From assembly GCA_964609855.1 (NCBI GenBank), contig CAZSTB010000008.1:1-55242 (forward strand): 55,242 nucleotides of DNA, read 5' to 3'. The DNA comes from an uncultured Bdellovibrionales bacterium (GTDB lineage: Bacteria > Patescibacteriota > Minisyncoccia > Moranbacterales > GWC2-37-73). The translations under genes and the position numbers were made by a program. This document shows, piece after piece, positions 51,137-51,217 of this stretch; position 1 is the stretch's first letter; each line of letters starts with the position of its first letter. The notes beneath the pieces were generated by a model. That model was not told where the DNA came from. It ran no database searches and saw only the letters and a program-made list of their open reading frames with translations.

Positions 51137-51217
51137 TGGAGTACACAATGAGACTCGAACCCATGACCTCCTAACCGTGAAAGGGCTAGGCACTCTAACC
51201 AGCTGAGTTATGTGCAC
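51137..51217 (-). tRNA. Non-canonical tRNA, anticodon UUC (Glu), 7-bp anticodon stem, G3-U70, U73
   Basis: GTGCACA TA ACTC AGCTGGTTA GAGT G CCTAGCC CTTTCAC GGTTAGG AGGTC ATGGG TTCGAGT CTCAT TGTGTAC T CCA. Confidence 0.88.

What the first reader, a model, noticed from the sequence alone, without database searches (positions are those of the whole stretch)
51137..51217. tRNA with a 7-bp anticodon stem, Glu anticodon and the Ala identity pair G3-U70
Seen: all four arms pair fully (acceptor 7, D 4, T 5, CCA encoded), but the anticodon stem is CCTAGCC/GGTTAGG (7 bp instead of 5) around the Glu-type loop CTTTCAC. The connectors (TA, G26, 5-nt variable loop) are normal, so the extra length is not compensated. 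Established: G3-U70 is the main AlaRS determinant, with A73 contributing (U73 here). A symmetric 2+2 nt extension that keeps pairing is hard to explain by decay. Inference: a misacylated (Ala-charged, Glu-anticodon) or ribosome-excluded tRNA mimic.
Basis: partly seen in the sequence, partly recalled or inferred. Interest (0 to 1): 0.85.

Follow-up and report, generated by a model that had tools for sequence, protein, structure and literature searches.

The report
Orphan tRNA with overlong anticodon stem
A small uncultured (CPR) bacterium carries a perfectly folded tRNA-shaped gene whose anticodon arm is two base pairs too long and which bears the alanine mark G3-U70, but it exists in this one species only, so it is either a young non-decoding tRNA mimic or a tRNA copy on its way out.

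Summary
On the minus strand, 51217->51137, there is an 81-nt tRNA: ARAGORN calls Glu(UUC) and Rfam tRNA scores 46 bits. All 23 base pairs are intact and every conserved core base is present. It has a 7-bp anticodon stem, loop CUUUCAC, G3-U70, U73 and an encoded CCA. Two independent read assemblies give the identical sequence.

It is not the cell's tRNA-Glu, because normal Glu(UUC) and Glu(CUC) genes lie elsewhere in the genome.

It is an orphan. Nothing like it turned up in same-genus genomes, in about 800 sampled CPR genomes, or in pattern scans of the viral and metagenome collections. It lies in a hypervariable island made largely of genes without known relatives, next to mltG. There it is packed between a 96-nt rod-shaped RNA that also ends in U-CCA and a structured tail with a strong terminator.

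Charging with alanine and exclusion from the ribosome are plausible from established rules but untested. No partner enzyme, antisense RNA or expression data were found. My best reading (0.4) is a lineage-specific, non-decoding tRNA mimic. The close rival (0.35) is a recently acquired tRNA copy without function. The shape is unusual, but nothing yet shows that it works.

The parts
51137..51217 (-). 81-nt tRNA-like gene: class-I cloverleaf, anticodon UUC, G3.U70, U73, encoded CCA
   Evidence: ARAGORN; Rfam RF00005 46.1 bits; sequence; identical in two Logan assemblies
51170..51190 (-). Extended anticodon arm: 7-bp stem CCUAGCC/GGUUAGG (51190-51184 with 51176-51170) and 7-nt loop CUUUCAC (51183-51177). 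It is 4 nt longer than the canonical arm.
   Evidence: Sequence; kept in the MFE fold; cmscan shows 11 nt in place of the 7-nt loop. All other covariance-model hits in 400 class-level genomes are 4 nt shorter.
51143..51143 (-). U70, wobble partner of G3 (51215): the main AlaRS identity pair
   Evidence: Sequence. Among 36 ARAGORN tRNAs only this gene and, in their standard register, the two tRNA-Ala genes have G3.U70.
51238..51333 (-). 96-nt rod-shaped RNA, 20 nt upstream of the tRNA, with 31 bp and no mismatches. Its 7-bp end GGAAGCU/AGCUUCC is followed by U-CCA, like the genome's tRNA-Ser(UGA). Its middle resembles the D and anticodon arms of tRNA-Leu(CAA).
   Evidence: Fold -42 kcal/mol, z = -6.3; comparisons; no relative in 301 order-level genomes
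50978..51136 (-). Structured non-coding tail between the tRNA and the terminator
   Evidence: Fold of 50940-51136: z = -3.4; no Rfam family; no significant tRNA similarity
50938..50977 (-). Intrinsic terminator: 13-bp stem with 6 G-C pairs, then UUUUAUUU. It closes the RNA cassette.
   Evidence: Terminator scan; weak NsiR1-like terminator alignment
51360..51388 (-). Weak candidate promoter TTGACC-N17-AAATAT, with TG before the -10 box, about 25 nt upstream of the rod RNA. Inference only.
   Evidence: Read from the sequence; not reported by the promoter scan
51399..51908 (-). Isochorismatase-family gene (169 aa) whose stop codon precedes the RNA cassette. Its relatives elsewhere carry no such RNAs.
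   Evidence: Pfam PF00857, E = 3e-17. Homologues at 54% identity or less; none of the five loci read (three homologues) holds a tRNA.

Best explanation
This is a lineage-specific, tRNA-derived RNA gene that keeps the whole tRNA body but is not a normal decoder.

Shown:
- It is a real, intact cloverleaf whose anticodon helix is 7 bp instead of 5, with no compensating shortening elsewhere.
- The cell has its own tRNA-Glu genes.
- The gene lies in a compact non-coding cassette on the minus strand: rod RNA ending U-CCA, a 20-nt spacer, this tRNA ending U-CCA, a 160-nt structured tail, then a terminator. The cassette follows an isochorismatase-family gene.
- The cassette sits in a hypervariable island made largely of genes without known relatives, beside mltG, in a CPR/Patescibacteria genome.

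Inferred:
- The cassette is transcribed as one unit.
- The tRNA is cut out by RNase P and 3' processing like any tRNA, leaving its encoded CCA.
- G3.U70 makes it a substrate, probably a poor one because of U73 and U2-A71, for alanyl-tRNA synthetase.
- The extra two base pairs push the anticodon roughly 5-6 Angstrom further out and turn it by about 65 degrees. It therefore cannot span the decoding and peptidyl-transferase centres like a standard tRNA.

It would then act outside decoding. It could be an alanine carrier for a tRNA-dependent transferase (the genome has a Fem-family gene). It could instead be a decoy or regulator that binds tRNA-handling proteins.
For: - Intact cloverleaf and core bases; identical in independent assemblies.
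- Canonical Glu(UUC) and Glu(CUC) genes elsewhere.
- The tRNA (23 bp) and the neighbouring rod RNA (31 bp) together have 54 pairs: seven G.U wobbles and no mismatch. On the plus strand those seven would be A.C mismatches, so the pairing is kept for the minus-strand transcript. If transitions hit perfect helices at random, 7:0 has a chance of about 1 in 128 (my calculation).
- Both RNAs end in U-CCA, while only 5 of 36 tRNAs in the genome encode CCA.
- A strong terminator closes the cassette. G+C is 0.44-0.47 there against 0.28-0.40 in the flanks.
- A symmetric 2+2 nt insertion that pairs needs two separate events.
- A Fem-family transferase gene exists at C1:~54300-55350.
- G3.U70 suffices for AlaRS charging of non-alanine tRNAs (PMC7954030), and natural G3:U70 allo-tRNAs are charged with alanine in E. 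coli (PMC5389517).
- A non-translating pseudo-tRNA with a cellular role is known: B. cereus tRNA-Other (PMC3399842).
Against: - No relative with this form in 60 close relatives, in 400 class-level genomes by BLAST and covariance model, or in 400 phylum-level genomes by spacing pattern.
- None in the viral collection, the JGI metagenomes, or phage and plasmid records. There is therefore no covariation or conservation evidence.
- Same-genus genomes lack the whole segment.
- Of the neighbouring genes, the 163-aa protein has no homologue among 5.8 billion proteins. Seven of the eight island genes match no Pfam family convincingly, and none matches PHROGs or PADLOC convincingly.
- No partner enzyme is adjacent; the Fem gene is on another contig.
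- No clear promoter and no expression data.
- U73 and U2-A71 depart from the alanine identity set.
- The genome also holds clearly degenerate tRNA-like genes.
Confidence: 0.4

Rival explanations
1. It is a relic without function. A tRNA gene, or a small tRNA cluster, was recently acquired or duplicated into a fast-turnover island. It picked up a +4 change in the anticodon arm and a C70-to-U transition, and it has simply not had time to decay. The neighbouring rod RNA would be a scrambled class-II tRNA from the same cluster.
For: - Found in one species only; absent from same-genus genomes at the syntenic site.
- The 163-aa neighbour has no homologue at all.
- The island is bounded by multi-copy repeats at which assemblies break.
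- The genome has other damaged tRNA-like genes: C23:15707-15788 and C21:372-509.
- The rod RNA shares its acceptor with tRNA-Ser(UGA) and a 35-nt stretch with tRNA-Leu(CAA), yet cannot form a cloverleaf.
- G3.U70 needs only one transition (PMC7954030).
- By contrast, the window's other odd tRNA (22650-22726) is conserved at 84-96% in five genera of the family.
Against: - Not one of 54 base pairs in the two RNAs is broken, and all seven non-Watson-Crick pairs are G.U on the transcribed strand.
- The two extra pairs need two complementary insertions.
- All tertiary-interaction bases are intact.
- CPR genomes are compact, and a 533-nt dead spacer with its own strong terminator is unexpected.
Confidence: 0.35
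2. It is a conflict-related tRNA mimic brought in by a mobile element or phage. For example, it could be a decoy for a tRNA-Glu-directed anticodon nuclease, or another bait for tRNA-binding proteins. Aminoacylation would be irrelevant.
For: - Location in a variable island without known relatives.
- The anticodon loop CUUUCAC is a normal Glu-type loop presented on an abnormal stem.
- Odd tRNAs are often found near toxin-antitoxin genes (PMC5389517).
Against: - No hit of the eight island proteins to defence (PADLOC) models, and only marginal, unannotated PHROGs hits.
- No integrase, and no repeat of any 13-nt or longer piece of the tRNA outside its D loop, as an att site would leave.
- No similar tRNA in the viral collection or phage records.
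Confidence: 0.12
3. It is a working decoder. It enters the ribosome and reads GAA/GAG, inserting alanine (deliberate mistranslation) or glutamate.
For: - Complete tRNA body with a normal 7-nt loop, U33 and A37.
- Natural G3:U70 hybrid tRNAs are translated in E. coli (PMC5389517).
Against: - From my own knowledge, no natural decoding tRNA with an uncompensated 7-bp anticodon stem is known. The 6-bp cases (tRNA-Sec, tRNA-Pyl, mitochondrial tRNA-Ser(UCN)) have compensating changes.
- The D arm lacks the GluRS-type features: it has C11-G24, C13-G22 and U47.
- Glu-to-Ala substitution across the proteome would be costly.
Confidence: 0.08
4. It is an assembly or binning artefact.
For: The genome is a 38-contig metagenome-assembled genome.
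Against: - Two Logan assemblies of separate runs are 100% identical over 5.2 and 6.0 kb.
- The flanking genes (mltG, SPFH, M16 peptidase, HisRS) are ordinary chromosomal genes, and mltG is 87-89% identical in same-genus genomes.
Confidence: 0.02

Closest known systems
Natural hybrid-identity tRNAs with G3:U70 and a non-alanine anticodon (allo-tRNAs, Mukai et al. 2017, PMC5389517; yeast tRNA-Pro C70U, PMC7954030)
   Same: Both have a G3.U70 pair in the acceptor stem joined to a non-alanine anticodon. Both are often found in variable or mobile regions.
   Different: Allo-tRNAs have 8/4 or 9/3 acceptor/T arms and long variable arms, and they are translated. This gene has a standard 7/5 body, U73, and an anticodon stem of 7 bp that should block decoding.
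tRNAs with a 6-bp anticodon stem (tRNA-Sec, tRNA-Pyl, mammalian mitochondrial tRNA-Ser(UCN))
   Same: The anticodon helix is longer than 5 bp.
   Different: Those have one extra pair plus compensating changes in connectors, the D arm or the variable region (my own knowledge). This gene has two extra pairs with normal connectors (UA, G26, 5-nt variable loop).
Bacillus cereus tRNA-Other, a pseudo-tRNA beside a genomic island (PMC3399842)
   Same: Both are tRNA-shaped genes at a genomic island. tRNA-Other is poorly aminoacylated, absent from polysomes and recruited to a non-translational role. It is the best experimental precedent for the proposed mode of action.
   Different: It comes from a different phylum, with different structural defects and a Trp anticodon acting on a T box. 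No such target is known here.
Non-proteinogenic tRNAs that feed Fem-type cell-wall transferases (Staphylococcus tRNA-Gly; cited in PMC3399842)
   Same: These are charged tRNAs kept away from the ribosome. This genome encodes a Fem-family protein.
   Different: Those tRNAs have normal stem lengths and differ in EF-Tu-binding positions. Here the Fem gene is on another contig and no link is shown.
This scan's own 'alanine-type tRNA look-alike plus private antisense RNA' module of CPR bacteria (e1-785949 and related notes)
   Same: CPR host, G3.U70 and a remodelled anticodon arm.
   Different: No antisense partner: duplex energies with the flanks fall within background, and no complementary 13-mer exists anywhere in the genome. 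The module also does not recur in other genomes.

Membership tests
Canonical elongator tRNA (Rfam RF00005) | Score above the family's gathering threshold, with all four arms | tested here: met
   46.1 bits against a gathering score of 29, model positions 1-71. It is the lowest score among the well-formed tRNAs of this genome, which score 51-76 bits.
Canonical elongator tRNA (Rfam RF00005) | 5-bp anticodon stem with a 7-nt loop (17-nt arm) | tested here: not met
   The arm is 21 nt: a 7-bp stem plus a 7-nt loop.
Canonical elongator tRNA (Rfam RF00005) | Conserved core bases (U8, A14, G18G19, A21, U33, G53 U54 U55 C56, A58, C61, R15-Y48) | tested here: met
   All are present in the sequence.
Bacterial tRNA-Glu (GluRS substrate) | Anticodon UUC/CUC with A37 | tested here: met
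   Loop C-U-UUC-A-C.
Bacterial tRNA-Glu (GluRS substrate) | Glu-type 'augmented D helix' (U11-A24, U13-G22..A46, no base 47), as known for E. coli GluRS (my own knowledge) | tested here: not met
   It has C11-G24, C13-G22, G46 and U47. The genome's own tRNA-Glu genes have the GUCU...GGAC D arm and a 4-nt variable loop. The body is closest to tRNA-Asp (78%).
tRNA-Ala identity set (AlaRS substrate) | G3.U70 wobble pair | tested here: met
   G at 51215 pairs with U at 51143. Otherwise only the two tRNA-Ala genes have it.
tRNA-Ala identity set (AlaRS substrate) | A73 discriminator and G2-C71 | tested here: not met
   It has U73 and U2-A71. The genome's tRNA-Ala genes have A73 and G2-C71.
tRNA-Ala identity set (AlaRS substrate) | Actual aminoacylation with alanine | not testable with these tools
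   This needs an in vitro charging assay.
CPR 'Ala-type tRNA look-alike plus antisense sRNA' module (scan-internal) | A neighbouring small RNA complementary to the anticodon and D arms | tested here: not met
   The best duplex within 900 nt is -23.8 kcal/mol, against a background 0.5th percentile of -22.9 and a minimum of -26.1. No complementary 13-mer exists in the genome. The best inverted repeat is 10 nt at 90%.
CPR 'Ala-type tRNA look-alike plus antisense sRNA' module (scan-internal) | Recurrence in other genomes | tested here: not met
   No counterpart found.
tmRNA tRNA-like domain | Acceptor and T arm joined to a tag reading frame and pseudoknots, with no anticodon arm | tested here: not met
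   This is a full cloverleaf. The genome's tmRNA is at C13:2181-2592 (127.5 bits).
allo-tRNA (Mukai 2017) | 8/4 or 9/3 acceptor/T stems and a long variable arm | tested here: not met
   It has 7/5 stems and a 5-nt variable loop.
tRNA pseudogene | Broken stems or lost core bases | tested here: not met
   No mismatch in 23 bp and an intact core.
tRNA pseudogene | No conservation in relatives; redundant with a functional isoacceptor | tested here: met
   Absent from relatives. Canonical Glu tRNAs are present.

The most novel reading that the evidence does not exclude
The three-RNA cassette is a working, RNA-only supply unit of a CPR bacterium. The tRNA with the 7-bp anticodon stem is charged with alanine through G3.U70. 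The rod RNA, which has a tRNA-Ser-type acceptor and U-CCA, is charged with serine. Both are shaped to stay out of the ribosome. They deliver Ala and Ser to a tRNA-dependent transferase such as the genome's Fem-family enzyme, or they act as charged decoys. This would be the first natural tRNA made 'ribosome-proof' by lengthening the anticodon helix.
Probability: 0.12. Interest if true: 0.8.

Novelty: new variant of a known kind. Interest (0 to 1): 0.45.

Why it matters
If the RNA is made and charged, it would show a simple natural way to keep an aminoacyl-tRNA out of translation: lengthen the anticodon helix by two pairs and leave the rest of the body intact. It would also add to growing hints that CPR bacteria keep dedicated tRNA-like RNAs for uses outside decoding. 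An uncompensated 7-bp anticodon stem would be a useful natural test case for how strictly aminoacyl-tRNA synthetases, EF-Tu, RNase P and the ribosome measure tRNA length. If it is only a young relic, it still shows how quickly tRNA genes are gained and remodelled in the variable islands of these small genomes.

Tried and rejected
- **tmRNA or two-piece tmRNA:** rejected. A complete tmRNA lies on C13.
- **Private antisense RNA, as in the scan's CPR modules:** no partner nearby or anywhere in the genome.
- **Integration scar:** no repeat of 13 nt or more of any part of the tRNA except the common D loop. An 18-nt identity of the 3' trailer with C2:8678-8695 is not collinear with anything else and is probably chance.
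- **Homologue hunts:**
  - BLAST in 60 relatives and 400 class-level genomes returned only normal tRNAs 4 nt shorter.
  - Covariance model R1 in 400 class-level genomes gave hits of 76-78 nt (nearly all 77) in the top 150.
  - Rod model R2 in 301 order-level genomes gave one chance-level hit.
  - Pattern scans of the viral and metagenome collections gave nothing. A spacing pattern gave four malformed viral hits and one non-tRNA hit in 401 phylum-level genomes.
  - Phage and plasmid records showed generic tRNA similarity only.
- **Wasted scan:** my single genome-contig scan used the pattern CTTTCAC-N7-AGGTC. This collection is therefore effectively unsearched.
- **Neighbouring proteins:**
  - No informative family in Pfam, PHROGs, NCBIfam or PADLOC.
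  - The 163-aa protein has no homologue.
  - None of the five loci read for three isochorismatase homologues holds a tRNA.
  - AlphaFold models of the 163-aa and 269-aa proteins were unusable (pLDDT 34 and 36), so no fold search was run.
- **Downstream tail as a tRNA fragment:** the similarity is within the shuffle null.

Full report
**1. What is there**

ARAGORN reports two tRNA genes in the window. One is tRNA-Glu(ttc) at 51137-51217 on the minus strand. Rfam's tRNA model matches it at 46.1 bits (gathering score 29) over the whole model, with 11 nt where the 7-nt anticodon loop belongs.

The sequence reads GUGCACA-UA-ACUC-AGCUGGUUA-GAGU-G-CCUAGCC-CUUUCAC-GGUUAGG-AGGUC-AUGGG-UUCGAGU-CUCAU-UGUGUAC-U-CCA.

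- Every stem pairs fully: 7, 4, 7 and 5 bp.
- Three pairs are G.U. One of them is G3.U70.
- The discriminator is U and the CCA is encoded.
- The connectors (UA, G26, 5-nt variable loop) are standard.
- All universally conserved core bases are present: U8, A14, G18G19, A21, U33, A37, G53-U54-U55-C56, A58, C61 and G15-C48.
- The free-energy fold keeps the 7-bp anticodon helix.

**2. Is it real DNA?**

However, two contigs assembled independently by Logan from runs SRR446577 and SRR446576 carry the locus. They are 100% identical to the window over 6.0 and 5.2 kb, including the whole 533-nt intergenic region. An artefact of the MAG assembler is very unlikely.

**3. The host and its tRNA set**

The genome is a 1.23-Mb, 38-contig assembly estimated 98.5% complete. 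The window holds ordinary chromosomal genes: HisRS, a Pif1 helicase, an M16 peptidase, an SPFH protein and MltG.

ARAGORN finds 36 tRNAs and Rfam finds 38. Canonical tRNA-Glu(UUC) (C11:19860-19932) and tRNA-Glu(CUC) (C19:9-81) are present. Both have the typical Glu-type D arm and a 4-nt variable loop. The odd gene is thus not needed to read Glu codons.

Its body is not Glu-like. The best match in its own genome is tRNA-Asp(GUC), at 78% over positions 8-66 with a 4-nt gap. Its unusual A10-U25 D stem recurs in the CAU tRNA on C23.

Apart from the two tRNA-Ala genes (GGGCCGG.../...CCGGUCC-A in the standard register), it is the only tRNA with G3.U70. Only 5 of 36 tRNAs encode CCA: this gene, the second odd tRNA at 22650-22726, Ser(UGA), the CAU tRNA on C23 and Leu(UAG).

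The assembly lacks any detectable tRNA-Gly or tRNA-Phe. The tRNA set is therefore incomplete, and arguments from absence must be cautious.

**4. Surroundings**

All genes from 45.4 to 55.2 kb run on the minus strand. The tRNA lies in a 533-nt gap between an isochorismatase-family gene (51399-51908; Pfam E = 3e-17) and a 163-aa gene without relatives (50374-50865).

The gap is filled by structured RNA:

- **Rod RNA, 51333->51238.** It lies 20 nt upstream of the tRNA and is 96 nt long. It folds into a rod of 31 bp without a mismatch (-42 kcal/mol, z = -6.3) and also ends in U-CCA.
  - Its terminal helix GGAAGCU/AGCUUCC-U-CCA is nearly that of the genome's tRNA-Ser(UGA), GGAAGCG/CGCUUCC-U-CCA.
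  - Its middle aligns with the D and anticodon arms of tRNA-Leu(CAA), with an identical CUGGA/UCCAG stem. That score sits only at the top of the shuffle null.
- **Downstream tail.** About 160 nt of further structure follows the tRNA (z = -3.4).
- **Terminator at 50977-50948**. It is strong.

No Rfam family other than tRNA matches the region convincingly, even at E up to 5. A possible promoter (TTGACC-N17-AAATAT with an upstream TG) lies about 25 nt before the rod RNA. It is weak, and the scan tool did not call it.

**5. Is it part of a family?**

I found no relative.

- BLAST in 60 relatives and in 400 class-level genomes returned only normal tRNAs that are 4 nt shorter over the anticodon arm.
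- A covariance model built with the 7-bp stem scored 114.7 bits on the gene itself. In 400 genomes it otherwise found hits of 76-78 nt, nearly all 77.
- Patterns that fix the loop, variable loop and spacing found nothing in the viral or JGI metagenome collections.
- A spacing-only pattern found four malformed sequences in the viral collection. In 401 phylum-level genomes it found only this gene plus one non-tRNA sequence.
- My one scan of genome contigs was swamped by tRNA-Val(CAC) genes that happen to fit the pattern.
- Phage and plasmid records gave generic tRNA similarity only.
- The rod RNA has no relative in 301 order-level genomes.

In same-genus genomes, mltG is 87-89% identical. The segment holding the RNAs and their neighbours is missing or replaced there, and no tRNA is present. 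The island ends at multi-copy repeats where the Logan contigs also break.

The 163-aa neighbour has no homologue among 5.8 billion proteins. Three isochorismatase homologues (54% identity or less) were read at five loci, and none holds a tRNA.

By contrast, the window's other odd tRNA (22650-22726, with an 18-nt anticodon arm) is conserved at 84-96% in five genera of the family, with an invariant arm. The search method can therefore find conserved oddities, and this gene is not one.

**6. Tests of specific ideas**

- It is not a tmRNA piece; the tmRNA is on C13.
- It is not a member of the 'Ala-type tRNA look-alike plus antisense RNA' module seen elsewhere in this scan. Duplex energies with the flanks are within background, and no complementary 13-mer exists in the genome.
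- It is not an integration scar; there is no repeat of its 3' part.
- The island proteins match nothing in PHROGs or PADLOC convincingly, and their AlphaFold models were unusable.
- The genome does encode a Fem-family, aminoacyl-tRNA-dependent transferase, but on contig C1.

**7. Weighing function against decay**

For function:

- There are 54 base pairs in the tRNA and rod RNA without a single mismatch. All seven non-Watson-Crick pairs are G.U on the minus strand. They would be A.C mismatches on the other strand. If transitions hit perfect helices at random, 7:0 has a chance of about 1 in 128.
- The extra two pairs need two complementary insertions.
- The tertiary core is intact.
- Both RNAs end in U-CCA.
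- A strong terminator closes the unit.
- G+C is raised over the RNAs.

Against function:

- The gene is a complete orphan.
- It sits in a fast-turnover island among genes without relatives.
- The genome has other damaged tRNA-like genes, at C23:15707-15788 and C21:372-509.
- There is no partner gene, no clear promoter and no expression data.
- G3.U70 can arise by one transition (PMC7954030).
- A very young copy would still look intact.

**8. Most likely mechanism**

I commit, at 0.4, to a non-decoding tRNA mimic.

- *Shown:* the anatomy, the redundancy with canonical tRNA-Glu genes, and the cassette layout.
- *Inferred from established rules:* excision by RNase P and 3' processing; some alanine charging through G3.U70 (PMC7954030; PMC5389517), weakened by U73 and U2-A71; and exclusion from normal A-site decoding. 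The exclusion follows because two extra pairs lengthen and rotate the anticodon end without compensation. The natural 6-bp cases are compensated (my own knowledge).

B. cereus tRNA-Other shows that a pseudo-tRNA beside an island can be poorly charged, absent from polysomes and still have a cellular role (PMC3399842).

The rivals are:

- a relic without function (0.35)
- a conflict-related decoy (0.12)
- a true, possibly mistranslating decoder (0.08)
- an artefact (0.02)

**9. Novelty and verdict**

The form is not described in the papers I could search. It combines an otherwise flawless class-I tRNA with an uncompensated 7-bp anticodon stem, G3.U70 and a Glu anticodon. It was also unique in every collection searched. 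It remains a single-genome orphan without evidence of expression or use.

I rate it a new variant of a known kind (odd or pseudo-tRNA) and give it interest 0.45.

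Noticed in passing
window 22650-22726 (-): A second aberrant tRNA. Its anticodon arm is 18 nt (CAGUC-GUUCAUUU-GGCUG: either an 8-nt loop, or a 6-bp stem with a 6-nt loop). It has one extra base at the T/acceptor junction. Unlike the gene studied here, it is conserved at 84-96% identity in same-genus genomes and four other genera of the family, and the arm is invariant in the five relatives aligned. CCA is encoded only in this genome.
   Followed up: partly
window 51238-51333 (-): A 96-nt rod RNA with 31 bp and no mismatches, ending in U-CCA. 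Its acceptor helix nearly equals that of the genome's tRNA-Ser(UGA), and its middle resembles tRNA-Leu(CAA) positions 8-43. It looks like a remodelled class-II tRNA in which the D-arm region is locked in a 13-bp helix. No relative was found in 301 order-level genomes.
   Followed up: partly
genome contig C23:15707-15883 (-): About 420 nt after a 16S rRNA 3' end lies a CAU tRNA ending U-CCA, with U37. Twenty nt further on is a tRNA-Ala-like body with a 17-nt anticodon loop and acceptor mismatches (Rfam 42.9 bits). This is the same 'RNA, 20-nt spacer, odd tRNA' spacing as at the locus studied.
   Followed up: no
genome contig C21:372-509 (+): A tRNA-like gene with an insert of about 64 nt in the anticodon region (Rfam 38.5 bits). 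It could be an intron or a pseudogene; this is undecided.
   Followed up: no
whole genome (G000): Neither ARAGORN nor Rfam detects a tRNA-Gly, tRNA-Phe, tRNA-Val(UAC) or tRNA-Gln(UUG) in an assembly rated 98.5% complete. A GIY-YIG nuclease ORF sits between tRNA-Tyr and tRNA-Thr on C9, where glyT often lies.
   Followed up: partly
window 44725-44925, 54373-54557, 43740-43830: Multi-copy G+C-rich palindromic repeat families, with 8 to 37 copies in this genome and many more in same-genus and same-family genomes. They flank the variable island, and the Logan contigs break at 54418.
   Followed up: partly
genome contig C1:~54300-55350 (+): A Fem-family (PF02388) aminoacyl-tRNA-dependent transferase gene: a 385-aa open frame scoring 145.7 bits.
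   Followed up: no
window 53268-53603 (-): A 111-aa island protein with weak similarity to the ASCH-type N4-acetylcytidine amidohydrolase YqfB (E = 0.008, below the cut-off). It is possibly an RNA-binding fold.
   Followed up: no
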